A stretch of 62,293 bases of DNA from positions 1 to 62,293 of the forward strand of contig JBCNVF010000014.1 of the NCBI GenBank assembly GCA_039630355.1, given 5' to 3'. Each line of letters opens with the position of its first letter. Positions within the stretch are counted from its first letter, which is position 1. Below the pieces are notes generated by a model that did no database searches, was not told the DNA's origin, and saw only the letters and a list, made by a program, of their open reading frames with translations. This document shows, piece by piece, positions 2,343 through 51,350 of this stretch. The translations under genes and the position numbers were made by a program. This stretch comes from Brevinematia bacterium (GTDB lineage Bacteria > Spirochaetota > Brevinematia > DTOW01).

Positions 2343-2553
2343 TTATAGGTCTTAATTTCTATTGGATGAGCTGATAAAGTTCTCAGTTTCCTACCTATTT
2401 ACCATACTGGTTCTGGGTAATATTTTCCAATTTGGAATGTTATCTTAGGTTGAGTTTTCTATTGATGAAAATGACGAAGAATTTTGAGAAAATATTCTCT
2501 CATACTCTTGAGAGAGGAAGACTACACCCAATTGTGAATTTTAGACTTTATTA
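2343..2553 (+). mobile_element. Decayed full-length copy (E) of the ~210-bp TIR element
   Basis: Left end TTAATTTCTATTGGATGAG resembles CCAATTTCCATTAGATGAG of copy B; right end GAAGACTACACCCAATTGTGAATTTTAGACTTTATTA resembles copies C and D; length 211 bp. Confidence 0.55.
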
Positions 2554-13117: not shown

Positions 13118-13331
13118 CAATAAATTCCAATTTCCACTGGATGACTAACCAAGACTCCAAGCTTTTTACTTACTCACTTTGATTCCAGATGGTGCTCGTT
13201 TGATCTCAGAATTTCATTTCACACTAAGTCTCTTAGGTGTTTTTGGGAGAGGTGTTCACTCAATCCTGATAGTGACTGCGAAAAAAATAAAAGAAAAACT
13301 ATGCCTAACTGTTAAATTTTAGAATTTATTG
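13118..13331 (+). mobile_element. MITE-like element copy A (214 bp) with TIRs and perfect 10-bp target duplication
   Basis: Left CAATAAATTCCAA versus reverse complement of right end CAATAAATTCTAA (12/13); flanked by AAGCTTGTTT at 13108-13117 and 13332-13341. Confidence 0.9.
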
Positions 13332-18729: not shown

Positions 18730-18820
18730 CAATAACCTCCAGTGTTTATTTAGTCGCAATAGGACTTCAAGAAAAGTAAGAGAAAAACTATGCCTAATTG
18801 TTAAGTTTTGGAATTTATTG
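18730..18820 (+). mobile_element. Internally deleted copy (G, 91 bp) of the TIR element
   Basis: Last 39 nt match copy A at 36/39 (all three mismatches are transitions); left end CAATAACCTCCAG. Confidence 0.75.
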
Positions 18821-34037: not shown

Positions 34038-34073
34038 GTATTCAAGGGGTTTCCACTAAAGATGCTCCGGAAT

Positions 34074-34275
34074 AATAAATTCCAATTTCCATTAGATGAG
34101 TAGATAAGATTCAACTTTTTGTTTACCCACCTCCTTTGTTTCTAGACAGTGTTTATCAGTTGCAAATTCACTTCATACCAAGCCTCCTATTAGGAAGGGT
34201 GTTTACACAGTCCTGATAGGGATGAAAAGAGTAAAAGAAAAACTGTGCCTAATTGCTAAATTTTGGAGTTTATTG
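34074..34275 (+). mobile_element. MITE-like element copy B (202 bp)
   Basis: AATAAATTCCAATTTCCA identical to copy A; right end AAATTTTGGAGTTTATTG; flanks GCTCCGGAAT / GTTCCAGAAT (8/10). Confidence 0.88.
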
Positions 34276-34390
34276 GTTCCAGAATTATTGAAAAGGATAT
34301 TGCTAACAACAGCTTCTAGTCAATGTATAGAGTGTAAACTAAACAAGAGTAAGACTGGTTTTAATCCCTAGGTGTAGGTTTGGCTACTTC

Positions 34391-35548
34391 CTACTTAGTG
34401 AAAAGGGAATAGAAAAAGTTTGACTGATCTTCATATCCGTTTTTGAAATTATGTTTTTTTATGTTGTTTACGAAGGTTTCATACATCTCCCTGTTTCTTA
34501 GAAGTTCTATAGTTTTTGATATAACTTTTTTTGGATTCTCTATGTGTAGTCCTAGTTTCTCTCTTTCAACGAATTTTACAGTTCCTGTTTCTTGTCCCCA
34601 TATATAGCTTGATATTATGATTGGTTTTTCTAGAACTAGTGCTTCCATAGTTCCTGATGCTCCAGCTTTGGTGATTATAACATCAGCGATGTTTTGTAAC
34701 TCATACATGAAGTCTATAAAACCGAATACCTTGACATTGTAATTGTATTTATTGTGTTCATTTACTATTTTCCTTACTCTCTCCTCCATATCTTTATCTC
34801 TTCCGCAGACTACTGCAAGGTCTATTCCTTTAGCGTTTTGGTTGAGTAGAAAATGTCTTACGACACTATCAGCATTTCTTAGTGCTACACCGCCACTTGC
34901 TATAAGCACTAGGTTGTTTTCAGGGTTAAACCCTAGTTTACTCTTGATCTGCCTTAACTCCTCAGGAGGTAGTTTCTTTGAGTATTTTGGGTTGAGGATC
35001 ATGGGAAGTTTTACCAAATTCTCGGGAGGGACCTTGTATCTTTTTACAGCAATGTTGTATAAGTAGTCCGTATATACTATCATCTTGAGATCACGGTAAT
35101 GAAACCAAGCGGGATGAGGAGTGAAAGGATCTAACACCATCACATATATTGGTATGTTTTTACCAGAATCTTTCACAGCTTGTCTTATTACACCGTTAAG
35201 TAGAGGATGAAAACTTACTATAAGATCTGGGTTATACTCCTCCAGAGCCTTTCTAAACCTTTTAATGGTTCTCATTTTTATTAAGTTTTGTTCAATACTC
35301 ATTACGGGGCGTAAGATGCTTATATAGTATACGGTTATATACGCTAGCAAGGCTTTAGCGGAGACTACTGTATATCCGCTTTCTATTAGAGATTTGAGAA
35401 TTTTATTCTCTTCGCCGAAGCCTTCAAATAGAATGCACTCAAATGTGTCAGGGTATACTGTTTCTAATGCTTCCTTAAGAGCTTTAGCAGGTCCCAAATG
35501 TCCTCCACCAGTAAGTAGGTAGGGCATCAACACTTTCTTTTTGCTCAT
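34391..35548 (-). CDS. MGDG synthase / UgtP-like glycolipid glycosyltransferase (GT28-like)
   Basis: TGGGH, VSFHPL, AVVCGR, GFIDFMYELQ..ADVIITKAGASG..EAL...GQE. Confidence 0.8.
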   Translation of the reverse strand: MSKKKVLMPYLLTGGGHLGPAKALKEALETVYPDTFECILFEGFGEENKILKSLIESGYTVVSAKALLAYITVYYISILRPVMSIEQNLIKMRTIKRFRKALEEYNPDLIVSFHPLLNGVIRQAVKDSGKNIPIYVMVLDPFTPHPAWFHYRDLKMIVYTDYLYNIAVKRYKVPPENLVKLPMILNPKYSKKLPPEELRQIKSKLGFNPENNLVLIASGGVALRNADSVVRHFLLNQNAKGIDLAVVCGRDKDMEERVRKIVNEHNKYNYNVKVFGFIDFMYELQNIADVIITKAGASGTMEALVLEKPIIISSYIWGQETGTVKFVEREKLGLHIENPKKVISKTIELLRNREMYETFVNNIKKHNFKNGYEDQSNFFYSLFTK

Positions 35549-35621
35549 AGTTGACTCCTTTTTGAGGTTTATTATAACTAATATTTTGAAGATTTCTCAA
35601 TTTTTAGGGATATCTGGTAGT

Positions 35622-35834
35622 CAATAAGGTTTAAAATTCACAGCTAGGTGTGGTTTTTCCTTCTTTCTCTTGCAGTTTCCTGTCGGGGACTAGGTAAGTT
35701 TTCTTCCTAGTAAGCATCTAAGAAGCTTGGTGTGAAGTTAAGTTTCATAACTGACGAACGCTATCTAGAACCGAAAGAAGTAAGCAGAAGTTTGGAATCC
35801 TGATTGTTCACTTGGTAGAAATTGGAATTTGTTG
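35622..35834 (-). mobile_element. MITE-like element copy C (213 bp, inverted)
   Basis: Ends CAATAAGGTTTAAAATT...AAATTGGAATTTGTTG; interior collinear with A, B and D; no target duplication seen. Confidence 0.85.
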
Positions 35835-38448: not shown

Positions 38449-39615
38449 ATGATAAGGTATTTTACCTCGGGCGAGTCTCACGGTAAAGGGATATCTGCTG
38501 TGGTCTATGGTTTTCCGTCAAATATACCTGTTGACTTGGATTACATAAATTCTTGTCTTTCAAGAAGGCAGAGAGGTTATGGTCGTGGTGATAGAATGAA
38601 AATAGAAAAGGATGTTGTTGAGATCTTAGGTGGAGTAAGGGGTGGTAAAACCCTGGGTGTGCCAATATCAATGGTTGTCTGGAATAGAGATTGGGAAAAT
38701 TGGAAAGACAGAAGTTTACCTAGAGTAACAAAACCTCGTCCAGGACATGCAGATTTGGTTGGAGTTTTGAAATATGGTTTTGACGATATAAGGGATGTCT
38801 TGGAAAGAGCAAGTGCAAGGGAGACAGTTGTTAGAGTTGCAGTAGGTGCATTAGCAAAGTATACTTTGGAGAAGTTTTTTGATGTTTTGATATTCTCACA
38901 TGTTGTGTTATTTGGTGGTGTGAAGATTGACCTAAAGGGGCTTACCTATAGACAAATAATGGAAAACTCATTGTCTTCAGATGTTGGGATTGGTAACCCT
39001 AGATTTGAAAAAGATGTGAAAGAGTGTGTTGACAAAGCTAAAGAGGGGGGAGATACTCTGGGGGGAGTAGTGGAGGTAGTTGTTTTAAATCCTCCTGTTG
39101 GTTTGGGAAGTTATGCTCATTGGGAGGACAAAATTGATGCTAGGATAGCTTATGCAGTTATGAGCATACAAGCGGTAAAGGGAGTTGAATTTGGGATAGG
39201 TTTTAAAGCTGGGGAAATCAGAGGAAGTGAGATGCATGATGAGATATTCTGGGATGGTCAGAGATTCTTTAGAAAGACAAACAATGCTGGTGGAGTTGAG
39301 GGAGGAGTGACAAATGGTGAACCTATAATACTAAGGTGTGTTATGAAACCAATTTCTACGCTAGTAAGACCCAAAAGATCGGTTGATATAGTTACTAAGG
39401 AAGAACTCCTAGCTCATGTTGAGAGATCTGATGTTTCTGCAGTTCCATCATTGGGTGTCATTGTTGAATCTGTAGTTGCTATTGAGCTTCTAAGTGCACT
39501 GCTAAAAAGATACGGAGGTGATGATATCAATCTTATCAAAAGATGCTTTGAACTGGATGATATACAGAAAAATAGAACGGGAATGACAGTTATTGATAGA
39601 GTCTACTTAGAGTAG
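38449..39615 (+). CDS. aroC: Chorismate synthase
   Basis: TSGESHG, RRQRGYGRG, PRPGHAD, ERASARET, NNAGGVEGG. Confidence 0.97.
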   Translation: MIRYFTSGESHGKGISAVVYGFPSNIPVDLDYINSCLSRRQRGYGRGDRMKIEKDVVEILGGVRGGKTLGVPISMVVWNRDWENWKDRSLPRVTKPRPGHADLVGVLKYGFDDIRDVLERASARETVVRVAVGALAKYTLEKFFDVLIFSHVVLFGGVKIDLKGLTYRQIMENSLSSDVGIGNPRFEKDVKECVDKAKEGGDTLGGVVEVVVLNPPVGLGSYAHWEDKIDARIAYAVMSIQAVKGVEFGIGFKAGEIRGSEMHDEIFWDGQRFFRKTNNAGGVEGGVTNGEPIILRCVMKPISTLVRPKRSVDIVTKEELLAHVERSDVSAVPSLGVIVESVVAIELLSALLKRYGGDDINLIKRCFELDDIQKNRTGMTVIDRVYLE

Positions 39616-39668
39616 AGGTTGTCAATTATTTTAAGCAAACCTTATTATCTATTTAGCTCACTAGTTTC

Positions 39669-39888
39669 CTATGAAGTCTAAGATTTACAGTTGGGTGCAG
39701 TTTCTTCTCCTTATTTTCCTCGCAGTCCCTGGCGGGACTGATGAACTTCTCTTTTGGCAAGCACCTAGCCTAGTATGAAATGAGGTTTTGTTACCGAAGA
39801 ACACTGCCTAGAACCAAAGGGGATAAATAGAAGTGAGCAAAAATTTTAGAATCTTGTTTACTCTCCTAATGAAAATTGGAATTTATTG
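39669..39888 (-). mobile_element. MITE-like element copy D (220 bp, inverted), overlapping the murD 3' end
   Basis: AAAATTGGAATTTATTG end at 39888; interior collinear with A-C; perfect hairpin CAGTCCC-TGGC-GGGACTG at 39723-39740. Confidence 0.85.
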
Positions 39889-41245
39889 CTAACTTTCTGA
39901 CTATGCTTTTAAAACATTCACCTCTGTGTTCATAGTTTTTGAACATGTCAAAGCTTGCATAAGCTGGTGAGAATAGGACGATATCTCCTTTATCAGCAAT
40001 TTCTCTTGCTTTTGTTACTGCGTCTTCTAGATTTTCTGCTTTGTAGAATTTGTTGTATCCTTGGGTTTTGAGTTTTTCAACTATAAGTTCTCTAGTGCTT
40101 CCGATTGCGATAACATACTTAACTTTTTTCTTTATTATGGGAACAGCTTCGTCAAAGTCCATTCCCTTGTCAAGTCCTCCTACGATCAGGACTATTGGGT
40201 TATCTAGACTTCTTATTGCACTAACCATTGCGTTTATAGTTGTGGACTTAGAGTCGTTTATGTATTTTGCTCCATCTATTTCTGTAACAAATTCCATCCT
40301 GTGTGGTAATGGTTCAAAAGAGTAAATGCTTTCCTCAATTATCTCTTTGGGTAGTTCCATTTCCATTCCTATTGCAACTGCTATCATGATATTCTCAATA
40401 TTGTGTTTGCCTATCAGTTTAACTCTAGTTGTATTGATAACTTTTTCTTCTTCAAACCATATATAGCCGTCTCTGAGGTATACCTCTTTGCTACTTAGTT
40501 TTCCGTTTCTACCTTCATAGGCCGAGAAAAAGATTTTTCTGCACCTTAGGTTATTTACTTGCGGTAAGTTCAGAAGGGATTTGTTTAGAACGCTTATTTC
40601 TTTCTCCTCAGAGTTCTTGAACAAGGAAAACTTTGACGCAATGTAATCTTCAAACGAGGGGTATCTATCAAGGTGATCTTTTGCAATGTTAGTTATAGCT
40701 CCTATTTTTGGGGTGAACTCTCTTGTGGTATCTATTTGAAAACTACTTATCTCTAGAACGAGAGTTTCAATATCCTCTTCAAAGAGTGAGAATATTGGTA
40801 TGCCTACATTACCGCCAATGAATGTTTTAGGGAGGTAGGAACTTAGGACTTTGTGTGTTATATTGGTTGTTGTTGTTTTACCGTCCGTTCCTGTTATAGC
40901 GATGTATCTGATATTGGGTTTTAGCCTGTAAAAAAGTTCAATATCTCCTATGACTTCAATGTCTTTTTCCAAAGCTTTAGCTATAATTGGATTAGTCAGA
41001 GGCACACCTGGGCTTGAGATAATCATCTCTACATTATCAAGCTCTGCATCCTCTGTGCCTAGTAGGTCAATGACTTCTCCTTTTGCTTTTTCTTTGACCT
41101 TGGATAGAAGTTCTTCTTTTTCGGGGTCTCTGACTTTGTCGGAGATTAAAACGTTGCAACCCTTTTCGGCTAGGAACTTGGCAGTATGAAAGCCTGTTCT
41201 ATGAGTGAATCCTAATACTAAGAAGTTCTTTTTACCTAGTATCAT
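39866..41245 (-). CDS. murD: UDP-N-acetylmuramoyl-L-alanine--D-glutamate ligase
   Basis: SSPGVP, AITGTDGKTTT, LEISSFQ, DHLDRY, NDSKST, FSPAYASFDMFKNYEHRG. Confidence 0.95.
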   Translation of the reverse strand: MILGKKNFLVLGFTHRTGFHTAKFLAEKGCNVLISDKVRDPEKEELLSKVKEKAKGEVIDLLGTEDAELDNVEMIISSPGVPLTNPIIAKALEKDIEVIGDIELFYRLKPNIRYIAITGTDGKTTTTNITHKVLSSYLPKTFIGGNVGIPIFSLFEEDIETLVLEISSFQIDTTREFTPKIGAITNIAKDHLDRYPSFEDYIASKFSLFKNSEEKEISVLNKSLLNLPQVNNLRCRKIFFSAYEGRNGKLSSKEVYLRDGYIWFEEEKVINTTRVKLIGKHNIENIMIAVAIGMEMELPKEIIEESIYSFEPLPHRMEFVTEIDGAKYINDSKSTTINAMVSAIRSLDNPIVLIVGGLDKGMDFDEAVPIIKKKVKYVIAIGSTRELIVEKLKTQGYNKFYKAENLEDAVTKAREIADKGDIVLFSPAYASFDMFKNYEHRGECFKSIVRKLAINSNFH

Positions 41246-41260
41246 ATTTCTACTCCTTGT

Positions 41261-42223
41261 TTATTCAATATGCACTCTTGGGTCCATAGCATCCCTTAAG
41301 GCTTCTCCTAGTAGGTTTAGTCCAACCACGGTTATGAATATAGCGATACCTGGGAAGACTGCCAGCCACCATGCATAACTTATATATTGGTTTCCGAGGA
41401 GGAGAATATTACCCCAGCTTGGGGTAGGAGGTTGGACTCCGAGTCCTAGGAAGCTTAAGGATGATTCAACAAGAACTGCTCCTGCTATACCAAAGACTAA
41501 GGAGACAATAGCGGGATTTATAGCGTTGGGTAGGAGGTGTCTTGTCAGTATGTATATATTACTTGTTCCTGTTATTTTAGAGATTTTAACAAAGTCCATA
41601 TTTGAGACTCTTAGGGTTTCTCCTCTTACAAGCCTAGCTACTCCTGTCCAGCCAGTGAGTCCTATTACGAACATTATGTTATAGATGTTGGGGGGTAGGA
41701 AGGCTAAGATAGTGAGGATAAGAAAGAGAGTTGGAAAGGTCATGAAAACCTCTATTACCCTCATGATGATAGCGTCAACTATTCCTTTGAAGTATCCTGC
41801 TAGAAGTCCTAGGGTAGTGCCTATGATGAATGCTGTTCCCATTGCTACGATTCCTACGGATATTGAGACTTGAGTCCCGTATATTATTCTTGCGAGAACA
41901 TCTCTTCCTAGGTCATCAGTTCCGAGAAGATGTTCTTTAGAGGGTGGTAGGAGTTTTTTTTCAAGGTTTATTGTGTATGGGTTGTGTGGAATAGGTGGCA
42001 TTATTTTGAAACTACTTTTTGACCAATCTACCTCTTCGGCGTATTTGGAGGGTAGAAGCACTGGAAAGAATACTCTCCCGTCAAGTATGCAGAATATGGG
42101 TTTATTGTTGGCGACAAACGGTGAGAATATGACGGTAAAGAGAAGGAGAAAAACGATAGAAAGCCCAATGATACCTAGCTTATTTGAGAAGAAGCGGTTT
42201 TTGACAAACTCTAGGTAAGTCAT
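41261..42223 (-). CDS. Peptide/nickel ABC transporter permease (OppC/DppC-like)
   Basis: HLLGTDDLGRDVLARIIYG, EAA-like loop, RHLLPN, ESSLSFLGLG. Confidence 0.88.
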   Translation of the reverse strand: MTYLEFVKNRFFSNKLGIIGLSIVFLLLFTVIFSPFVANNKPIFCILDGRVFFPVLLPSKYAEEVDWSKSSFKIMPPIPHNPYTINLEKKLLPPSKEHLLGTDDLGRDVLARIIYGTQVSISVGIVAMGTAFIIGTTLGLLAGYFKGIVDAIIMRVIEVFMTFPTLFLILTILAFLPPNIYNIMFVIGLTGWTGVARLVRGETLRVSNMDFVKISKITGTSNIYILTRHLLPNAINPAIVSLVFGIAGAVLVESSLSFLGLGVQPPTPSWGNILLLGNQYISYAWWLAVFPGIAIFITVVGLNLLGEALRDAMDPRVHIE

Positions 42224-42247
42224 TTTGTGGATAGAACCTTAAGTATT

Positions 42248-42320
42248 TGGGCGGTAGAGGATTTGAACCTCTGACCTCTTGCTTGTAAGGCAAGCGCTCT
42301 AACCACTGAGCTAACCGCCC
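42248..42320 (-). tRNA. tRNA-Val(TAC), CCA not encoded
   Basis: GGGCGGTTAGCTCAGTGGTTAGAGCG-CTTGC-CTTACAA-GCAAG...GGTTCAAATCC..CCGCCC-A; 73 nt; followed by AAT. Confidence 0.97.
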
Positions 42321-42832
42321 GTTGTTTTACTAACTTTTGCTTTTTCTATTCTTGCCTTGGCGTAGTTCATCAAACCGCCGTGTCTAAATATCTCAAAGAG
42401 TATTTTTGGGAAAGGTTTTATCTTGAACTCTTTGTCTTTGGTAATGTTTCTCACAATACCTTTTTCTAGGTCAATTTCAATTATGTCTCCAGTGTCTGTG
42501 TTGTCAACAGCTTCGGGTGCCTCAACAATGGGTAGTGCTCTGTTTATTGAGTTTCTGAAGAATATCCTTGCAAACGATTTAGCGACAACTGCACTTACTC
42601 CAGCGGATTTTATTGATATGACTGCATGCTCTCTTGAGGAACCTGAGCCAAAGTTTTTCCCTGCAACGAGAATGTCTCCTTTTTGGACTTTACTTGCAAA
42701 CGTTGGATCTTCGTCCTCAAGACAGTGTTTTGCTAGTTCTTTTGGATCTGTTGTGTTCAAATACCTTGCAGGGATTATCTTGTCAGTGTCTATATCATCG
42801 CCGTATTTCCAGACCTTGCCCTTTATGATCAT
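42311..42832 (-). CDS. leuD: 3-isopropylmalate dehydratase small subunit
   Basis: GDDIDTDKIIPARYL, GKNFGSGSSREHA, SFARIFFRN; stop codon lies inside tRNA-Val. Confidence 0.92.
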   Translation of the reverse strand: MIIKGKVWKYGDDIDTDKIIPARYLNTTDPKELAKHCLEDEDPTFASKVQKGDILVAGKNFGSGSSREHAVISIKSAGVSAVVAKSFARIFFRNSINRALPIVEAPEAVDNTDTGDIIEIDLEKGIVRNITKDKEFKIKPFPKILFEIFRHGGLMNYAKARIEKAKVSKTTGG

Positions 42833-42912
42833 ATTTATGATTAATTCTGTATGATGCTCTTGAATTTACTCAAGTTTGCTAAATTTTCATTTTAGGTGTT
42901 TGTGTTTTACAA

Positions 42913-51043: not shown

Positions 51044-51227
51044 CAATAGATTCTAATTTCCGAGTGTCACTTTACATTTAACTTTCGGCTTTCATTAAGA
51101 GAACAATTTTAACCAGTCCTAACTAGGGTTACGAGAGAAATAGGAAAAAACTGCACCTAGTTCAGATAGGGACTACGATGGAAACAAAATGAAAACCATA
51201 CTTGATCATCAAATTTTGGATTTATTA
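51044..51227 (+). mobile_element. Rearranged copy (I) of the TIR element
   Basis: Left CAATAGATTCTAATTTCC; right AAATTTTGGATTTATTA; the hairpin-to-AAAAACT segment is present twice in tandem. Confidence 0.7.
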
Positions 51228-51350
51228 GACTACCCAAAGTGAACTTGAAGGAAAAAAGTGAGTTTAGAGAAAATAATTGTCTAGAGGACTGAAGATTCTC
51301 TGTAAAGGTGTCAATTATTTTGGTGTTTGGTAGTTTTTGTTGGGGTTGAG

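What the first reader, a model, noticed from the sequence alone, without database searches (positions are those of the whole stretch)
39651..39900. The element supplies the C-terminus and stop codon of the essential gene murD
Seen: on the minus strand murD reads AGA AAG TTA G|CA ATA AAT TCC AAT TTT CAT TAG, so residues A-I-N-S-N-F-H and the stop come from the TIR of copy D. The far flank reads GAAACTAG TGAGCTAA, a decayed duplicate of GAAAGTTAG. Removing the element restores ...AAG TTA GTG AGC TAA (K-L-V-S-stop) in frame. Inference: the insertion landed in the last codons of murD, was tolerated, and replaced the ancestral tail.
Basis: partly seen in the sequence, partly recalled or inferred. 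Interest (0 to 1): 0.7.

Follow-up and report, generated by a model that had tools for sequence, protein, structure and literature searches.

The report
Small transposon ends the murD gene
A 220-bp non-coding mobile element (MITE) inserted one base after the last conserved codon of the cell-wall gene murD in an uncultured hot-spring spirochaete, so the last seven residues and the stop codon come from the element; this is real, but the same outcome is already documented for MITEs in other bacteria.

Summary
murD (39866-41245, minus, 459 aa) reads ...SIVRKL, then AINSNFH and TAG. Its last 23 nt (39866-39888) are the terminal inverted repeat of a 220-bp repeat, copy D (39669-39888).

The repeat has seven copies in the window (four full, three degenerate). 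It has about 17-nt terminal inverted repeats and 9-10-bp target duplications, and no coding capacity or special RNA fold. It is a MITE.

All 119 MurD homologues examined share K-x-[LI]-V-x-x-hydrophobic after RGxxF, and 46 end exactly there. None has AINSNFH. The window has KSIVRKL, so the element entered 1 nt after the last conserved codon. Solved MurD chains end at query residue 452-453.

The far flank holds a decayed copy of the target (GAAACTAG against GAAAGTTAG; chance 0.7%). This supports insertion inside the ORF. The exact ancestral tail "VS-stop" is only a plausible reconstruction, because copies are 65-75% identical and therefore old.

The element has stops in all three frames at this end, so a short tail was the likely result in any frame. 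No empty-site allele or close relative was found.

MITEs overlapping the 3' ends of housekeeping genes are documented (Coxiella QMITE1/2, enterobacterial RU-1). This is a new, undescribed MITE family in Brevinematales-like bacteria doing something ordinary.

The parts
39866..41245 (-). murD (UDP-N-acetylmuramoyl-L-alanine--D-glutamate ligase), 459 aa, as it reads today
   Evidence: ORF list and translation. Pfam MurD-like_N, Mur_ligase_M and Mur_ligase_C all above cut-off. PDB MurD chains match at E 3.6e-73 to 1e-53.
39669..39888 (-). MITE copy D, 220 bp, with its left end abutting murD
   Evidence: nhmmer E 6e-56 against a profile of the copies. Alignment with copies A, C and E. Other copies in Logan contigs diverge exactly after 39888.
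39866..39888 (-). Element-derived coding tail: the CA of codon Ala453, then I-N-S-N-F-H and stop TAG. It lies within the left terminal inverted repeat and the 6 nt after it.
   Evidence: Direct reading. The same INSNFH-stop frame is present in non-coding copy C, so the stop belongs to the element and was not acquired here.
39889..39897 (-). murD-side copy of the target duplication, GAAAGTTAG. It encodes part of R450, K451, L452 and the first base of codon 453.
   Evidence: L452 is the last conserved MurD residue.
39661..39668 (-). Far, decayed copy of the target duplication, GAAACTAG (one substitution and one 1-nt deletion relative to GAAAGTTAG)
   Evidence: edit distance 2. A match this good occurs in 0.67% of random 9-mer pairs taken from the window.
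39653..39660 (-). TGAGCTAA: the putative remnant of the ancestral last codons (G)TG AGC TAA
   Evidence: Direct reading. This is inference only, because the stretch has been non-coding since the insertion.
39723..39740 (.). Short internal hairpin of the element (CAGTCCC-nnnn-GGGACTG). The stem is recognisable in all four full copies, with differences between them.
   Evidence: Alignment and fold. No terminator-like site was called in either direction.
38449..39615 (+). aroC (chorismate synthase), convergent with murD. Without the element the two stop codons would lie about 37 bp apart.
   Evidence: Pfam Chorismate_synt, E 3e-109.
13118..13331 (+). MITE copy A, intergenic, flanked by a perfect 10-bp direct repeat AAGCTTGTTT
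34073..34275 (+). MITE copy C, intergenic, with target duplication GCTCCGGAA/GTTCCAGAA (7 of 9)
35622..35834 (-). MITE copy E, intergenic, with no recognisable target duplication (4 of 9)
18742..18820 (+). Partial copy B (right-hand 80 bp only), intergenic
   Evidence: nhmmer E 6e-8.
2354..2551 (+). Degenerate copy, intergenic
   Evidence: nhmmer E 2e-6; ORF context.
51044..51228 (+). Degenerate copy, intergenic
   Evidence: TIR match with 2 mismatches. nhmmer pieces at E 3e-4 and 0.06. ORF context.

Best explanation
A non-autonomous TIR transposon (MITE, about 203-220 bp) was inserted into the 3' end of murD, presumably by a DDE transposase supplied in trans that makes a 9-10-bp staggered cut. 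The insertion point is one nucleotide after codon L452, the last residue of the conserved MurD C-terminal helix motif. The target GAAAGTTAG was duplicated. The murD-side copy stayed in the coding frame, while the far copy and the old last codons became non-coding and decayed. Translation now runs 23 nt into the terminal inverted repeat and stops at a TAG that belongs to the element, giving a 459-aa MurD whose last seven residues (AINSNFH) replace a short ancestral tail, possibly VS. The change was tolerated because everything after that motif is variable in length and sequence among MurD proteins and lies beyond the end of solved MurD structures. The AT-rich repeat end carries stops in all three frames, so only a short appendage could result. 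Shown: the element, its boundary, the present reading frame, the absence of this tail in relatives, and the position of the insertion relative to the conserved motif. Inferred: the transposition mechanism, the exact ancestral tail, and neutrality.
For: Element and boundary: four full and three degenerate copies in 62 kb, on both strands and in unrelated intergenic contexts. The terminal 16-mer gives 11 matches against 2.2 expected, exceeded by 0 of 100 shuffles. Other copies in Logan contigs diverge exactly after 39888. Target duplications: copy A 10/10, copy C 7/9, copy D edit distance 2 (chance 0.0067). The element has no significant RNA fold (z -0.09 and +1.04) and no Rfam family. Related copies occur in a relative whose MurD is 73% identical (L001, four copies, E 1e-14 to 1e-4) and are absent from its syntenic counterpart L115. 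MurD: all 119 homologues carry K-x-[LI]-V-x-x-hydrophobic after RGxxF, with 114 of 119 hydrophobic at the last position. 46 of them end there, the tails beyond are heterogeneous, and none is AINSNFH. PDB MurD chains end at query residue 452-453. The codon after L452 begins with G in both target copies, so it cannot have been a stop. Stops are reached after 1, 9 and 6 codons in the three frames at this end. Precedents: PMC5896051 and PMC2759123.
Against: No empty-site allele was seen: the two runs that hold this sequence show only the filled site at low depth. No relative closer than 73% MurD identity exists in the collections. Every relative has a different gene downstream of murD, so the ancestral 3' flank cannot be compared. 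The D target duplication is imperfect. Copy E shows none. No autonomous transposase-bearing partner was found. No single independent contig spans the whole element with both flanks, because Logan unitigs break inside it at 39808-39827.
Confidence: 0.8

Rival explanations
1. The element inserted just behind an intact murD stop codon, with the stop inside the duplicated target. A later 1-nt indel in the murD-side target copy then removed the stop and fused the ORF to the repeat end, as described for enhC and QMITE2 in Coxiella Dugway.
For: The two target copies differ by exactly one indel. If the murD-side copy read like the far copy (GAAACTAG), murD would end AGA AAC TAG right at the element boundary. 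A related lineage shows the stop-inside-the-target outcome (L109 and L110). The Coxiella precedent is in PMC5896051.
Against: That ancestor would end ...IVRN and lack the hydrophobic residue at the third position after V. That position is hydrophobic in 114 of 119 homologues, and all 119 are at least that long. The window's L452 fits the motif and is encoded by the murD-side copy, which also has the family's usual 9-bp length directly abutting the repeat end.
Confidence: 0.1
2. The aroC-side half of copy D is joined to the murD-side half by a metagenome mis-assembly across two different copies of the repeat. murD would still end in a repeat end, but the 'far flank' would say nothing about its ancestral tail.
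For: Independent Logan contigs break inside the element and none spans it. The downstream neighbour of murD differs from that of every relative.
Against: The two flanks carry matching 9-bp target copies, with chance about 0.7%. This is not expected if they came from different insertions. Variable downstream neighbours are seen among all the relatives, not only here.
Confidence: 0.07
3. The tail is native to MurD and the similarity to the repeat is coincidental, or the repeat family arose from the murD 3' end.
For: None beyond the fact that no empty site was seen.
Against: 22 of 23 nt are identical to the family consensus. The similarity continues for a further 197 bp beyond the stop. No homologue has the tail.
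Confidence: 0.02

Closest known systems
QMITE1 and QMITE2 of Coxiella burnetii (PMC5896051)
   Same: These are small TIR-bounded non-coding repeats that overlap the 3' ends of housekeeping genes by 1-50 bp (ubiB, pntAA, mutT, nagZ, recN, ruvB). In strain Dugway one supplies the C-terminal 33 residues of EnhC.
   Different: There is no sequence relationship and the host phylum differs. QMITE2 forms a stable stem structure, whereas this element has no significant fold. In the Coxiella enhC case an indel linked the gene to the element; here the insertion itself seems to have interrupted the ORF.
Enterobacterial RU-1/RU-2 (ERIC/IRU-type) small mobile sequences, Delihas 2007 (PMC2759123)
   Same: The paper describes fusion of the repeat to the 3' end of a conserved enzyme gene (E. 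carotovora amidase ECA3499). [quoted passage not shown]
   Different: Those tails are longer (about 35 aa) because the repeats carry open frames. Here the repeat end has stops in all frames and adds only seven residues. The sequences are unrelated.
IS-derived bacterial MITEs with 9-10-bp target duplications (for example derivatives of IS4-type or IS903-type DDE elements). This rests on my own knowledge and was not tested.
   Same: Short TIRs beginning CA, a 9-10-bp duplication, and non-autonomous copies of about 200 bp.
   Different: No transposase gene bounded by these TIRs was found in the window, in 185,579 GTDB representative genomes or in JGI metagenomes. The parent family is therefore unassigned.

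Membership tests
MITE (miniature inverted-repeat transposable element) | Small size (under about 500 bp) without coding capacity | tested here: met
   Copies are 203-220 bp. Stops occur in all frames and no ORF of substance is present.
MITE (miniature inverted-repeat transposable element) | Terminal inverted repeats | tested here: met
   The left end is CAATAAATTCCAATTT... and the right end is ...AAATTTTAGAATTTATTG. The first 10 nt are perfectly complementary, about 14 of 17-20 overall.
MITE (miniature inverted-repeat transposable element) | Target-site duplication of fixed length flanking each copy | tested here: met
   Copy A 10/10, copy C 7/9, copy D edit distance 2 (p 0.007), copy E not recognisable. 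This fits old copies that are 65-75% identical.
MITE (miniature inverted-repeat transposable element) | Multiple dispersed copies, in both orientations, at non-homologous sites | tested here: met
   Seven copies in the window, four in relative L001, and about ten further partial matches in Logan contigs of run X1.
MITE (miniature inverted-repeat transposable element) | Presence/absence polymorphism at orthologous sites (evidence of mobility) | tested here: inconclusive
   L001 has copies that its syntenic relative L115 lacks. The one site aligned in detail is complex and gave no clean empty site. No empty murD site was seen in the runs.
MITE (miniature inverted-repeat transposable element) | An autonomous IS with the same TIRs that supplies the transposase | tested here: not met
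   None was found in the window: the gene between inverted copies C and E is a glycosyltransferase. TIR scans of genome and metagenome collections gave only chance hits. Many accepted MITE families also lack a known partner.
MurD (Mur ligase family) | Three-domain architecture and full-length similarity to characterised MurD | tested here: met
   Pfam PF21799, PF08245 and PF02875 are all above cut-off. Alignment to PDB 3lk7, 7sy9 and 1e0d runs over residues 5-453.

The most novel reading that the evidence does not exclude
The element family, or elements with the same 9-bp target geometry in this Brevinematales-like clade, preferentially targets the AT-rich stop-codon region of genes. Its TIRs would be shaped to carry stops in all frames, so that hits in essential genes such as murD are survivable. 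The murD stop region would then be a recurrent target, as hinted by the L109 and L110 inserts flanked by a duplication of murD's last two codons plus stop.
Probability: 0.1. Interest if true: 0.5.

Novelty: new member of a known kind. Interest (0 to 1): 0.25.

Why it matters
It gives a clean, fully anatomised example of a mobile element rewriting the end of an essential cell-wall gene without harm. It also documents an undescribed MITE family at high density (about one copy per 9 kb here) in an uncultured thermophilic spirochaete lineage. For annotation, it warns that gene ends in such genomes may be repeat-derived and that contigs may break or mis-join at these repeats. It does not change the understanding of MurD or of MITEs.

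Tried and rejected
1. Rfam at gathering threshold found only tRNA-Val in the window, and nothing in the element. Folding copies D and A gave z-scores of -0.09 and +1.04, so a structured-RNA reading is rejected.
2. The terminator scan of 39400-40100 found none, so I make no claim that the element terminates murD or aroC.
3. The scan of 185,579 GTDB genomes for the TIR gave 105 single hits in unrelated taxa. All looked like chance, and no genome with several copies was found.
4. The scan of JGI metagenomes with a longer TIR pattern gave one hit, which lies in the coding sequence of a membrane protein and is a chance match.
5. Only copy D overlaps a gene. A protein search with a 6-7-residue peptide cannot reach significance in a database of 5.8 billion sequences, so it was not run.
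6. I looked for an empty-site allele in the two runs that hold the sequence and found none; depth is low and only contigs are kept.
7. I looked for a relative with murD convergent on aroC and found none among eight lineages.
8. I tested whether the gene between inverted copies C and E is the transposase. It is an MGDG-synthase-like glycosyltransferase.
9. I tried to use L001 against L115 as a filled-versus-empty pair to fix the TSD length. The region is too rearranged.
10. I tested whether the inserts behind murD in L109 and L110 belong to this family or to each other. They do neither.

Full report
**1. What is in the sequence**

The minus-strand ORF 39866-41245 encodes a 459-aa protein. It carries the three MurD domains: MurD-like_N, Mur_ligase_M and Mur_ligase_C, all above Pfam cut-offs. 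It aligns over residues 5-453 with solved MurD structures at E 3.6e-73 to 1e-53.

It converges on aroC (38449-39615, chorismate synthase, E 3e-109).

**2.

- The 16-mer CAATAAATTCCAATTT with up to 3 mismatches occurs 11 times, against 2.2 expected. None of 100 shuffles reached that number.
- Alignment and a profile search give four full copies: A 13118-13331 (+), C 34073-34275 (+), E 35622-35834 (-) and D 39669-39888 (-), with E-values of 1e-53 to 1e-59.
- There is one partial copy (B, 18742-18820) and two degenerate copies (2354-2551 and 51044-51228).
- Similarity among copies stops abruptly upstream of CAATAAATTCC.
- In two hot-spring metagenome runs that hold this sequence, contigs carrying other copies run off into unrelated sequence exactly after 39888.
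- The murD/element junction itself is reproduced without differences in contigs of both runs.

My reading of the far end, by alignment to the family's ...TTATTG terminus, is 39669.

**3. What the repeat is**

- The ends are inverted repeats. The first 10 nt are perfectly complementary, about 14 of 17-20 overall.
- Copy A is flanked by a perfect 10-bp direct repeat (AAGCTTGTTT). Copy C has GCTCCGGAA/GTTCCAGAA (7 of 9). Copy D has GAAAGTTAG/GAAACTAG. Copy E has nothing recognisable.
- A match as good as D's (edit distance 2) is found for 0.67% of random 9-mer pairs from the window.
- Copies are 65-75% identical pairwise. The family is therefore old, and decayed duplications are expected.
- The element has no ORF. 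It has no Rfam match and folds no better than shuffled sequence. No terminator-like site is called. One short hairpin (CAGTCCC-n4-GGGACTG) is recognisable in the four full copies.
- Related copies occur in a contig of a relative whose MurD is 73% identical (L001, four copies in 12 kb). They are absent from the syntenic contig L115 of a near relative of L001 and from seven other relatives' contigs.
- Exact TIR scans of 185,579 representative genomes and of JGI metagenomes gave only chance hits.

All this fits a MITE. No autonomous partner was found. The gene lying between inverted copies C and E is a glycosyltransferase, not a transposase. The host is a Brevinematales-like spirochaete from a hot spring.

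**4. Did the insertion replace the native tail?**

The closest MurD proteins in about 5.8 billion sequences are 67-73% identical and 451-454 aa long. Among 119 homologues, every one has K-x-[LI]-V-x-x-h after the conserved RGxxF. The last position is L, I, M, F, Y or V in 114 of 119. Of these homologues, 46 end exactly there, and the rest carry heterogeneous extensions. None has AINSNFH.

The window's protein has KSIVRKL followed by AINSNFH. The element therefore entered one nucleotide after the last conserved codon. Solved MurD chains end at the position aligned with query residue 452-453.

L452 (TTA) is encoded by the murD-side target copy. The next base is G in both target copies, so the ancestral next codon cannot have been a stop. 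The ORF ran on past the insertion point. That alternative would require an ancestor ending ...IVRN, shorter than every homologue and lacking the conserved hydrophobic residue.

The specific reconstruction GTG AGC TAA (V-S-stop) is arithmetically right. It would give a 454-aa protein, within the relatives' range. But it rests on 8 nt that have been free to mutate for as long as the element has, so I rate it as plausible only.

**5. Why the outcome was harmless**

The tail region is unconstrained in the family. The AT-rich repeat end has stops in all three frames: after 1, 9 and 6 codons at the left end of D. Non-coding copy C carries the same INSNFH-stop reading, so the stop is a property of the element and not an adaptation at murD.

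Of the 11 copies I could inspect (7 in the window, 4 in L001), only D overlaps a gene.

**6. Limits**

- No empty site and no close relative were found.
- The gene downstream of murD is different in each of eight related lineages, whereas the upstream genes (aconitase small subunit and oppC-like permease) are conserved. Synteny therefore cannot supply the ancestral flank.
- Independent contigs break inside the element at 39808-39827, so continuity across it rests on the window's own assembly plus the matching target copies.

**7. Comparison with what is known**

MITE overlap with the 3' ends of housekeeping genes is documented. In Coxiella burnetii, QMITE1 and QMITE2 overlap ubiB, pntAA, mutT, nagZ, recN, ruvB and others by 1-50 bp, and in strain Dugway one supplies the last 33 residues of EnhC (PMC5896051). 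[quoted passage not shown]

The present case is the same phenomenon with an unrelated, undescribed element family in a little-studied lineage.

**8. A parallel noticed in relatives**

In L111, murD ends ...ATG GAT AAG AAA TAA and is followed by CTTTATAC..., with the next gene 51 bp away. In L109 and L110, murD ends ATG AAA TAG and ATG ACA TAA respectively. Then come 280 bp and 145 bp of mutually unrelated sequence. After that, ATGAAATAA or GTGAAATAA appears again, directly before the same CTTTATA....

These inserts are therefore flanked by a 9-bp duplication made of murD's last two codons plus its stop. Here the duplicated stop kept the protein unchanged. The inserts do not match the MITE profile.

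**Verdict**

The phenomenon is ordinary. The novelty is limited to a new MITE family.

Noticed in passing
L109:1403-1700, L110:1400-1562, L111:2365-2373: In three related lineages with the same downstream genes, L111 has a compact murD end. L109 and L110 carry 280-bp and 145-bp inserts that are unrelated to each other and to the window's MITE. Each insert is flanked by a 9-bp direct repeat (ATGAAATAA-like) made of murD's last two codons plus its stop. The murD stop region looks like a recurrent insertion target in this clade.
   Followed up: partly
window 39600-42900 against L001, L002, L109-L118: The genes upstream of murD (aconitase small subunit, then an OppC-like permease) are conserved across most of the related contigs that reach that far. 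The gene downstream of murD differs between lineages: pilin-like, polA, 93-aa plus ABC transporter, integrase, polyprenyl synthase, PF1765-like, Wzy-like, and aroC here. This marks a rearrangement breakpoint right at the murD 3' end.
   Followed up: partly
window 34073-35834: Copies C (+) and E (-) lie in inverted orientation on either side of a single MGDG-synthase-like glycosyltransferase gene (34391-35548, minus). The layout resembles a composite transposon of 1762 bp. No shared target duplication is seen at the outer ends, and copy C has its own.
   Followed up: partly
window 2354-2551, 13118-13331, 18742-18820, 35622-35834, 51044-51228: Five of the seven copies sit between divergently transcribed genes, that is, in promoter regions. 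Only C and D sit between convergent genes. Whether the element carries promoter activity or simply survives there was not examined.
   Followed up: no
L001:330-688: Two related copies abut or overlap (330-527 and 525-688, same strand) in the relative's contig, which suggests tandem or nested insertion. The syntenic contig L115 of a near relative has no copy at all in 21 kb.
   Followed up: partly
window 42248-42320: tRNA-Val (TAC) lies between the aconitase small-subunit gene and the permease gene upstream of murD. It is the only Rfam or ARAGORN hit in the window.
   Followed up: no
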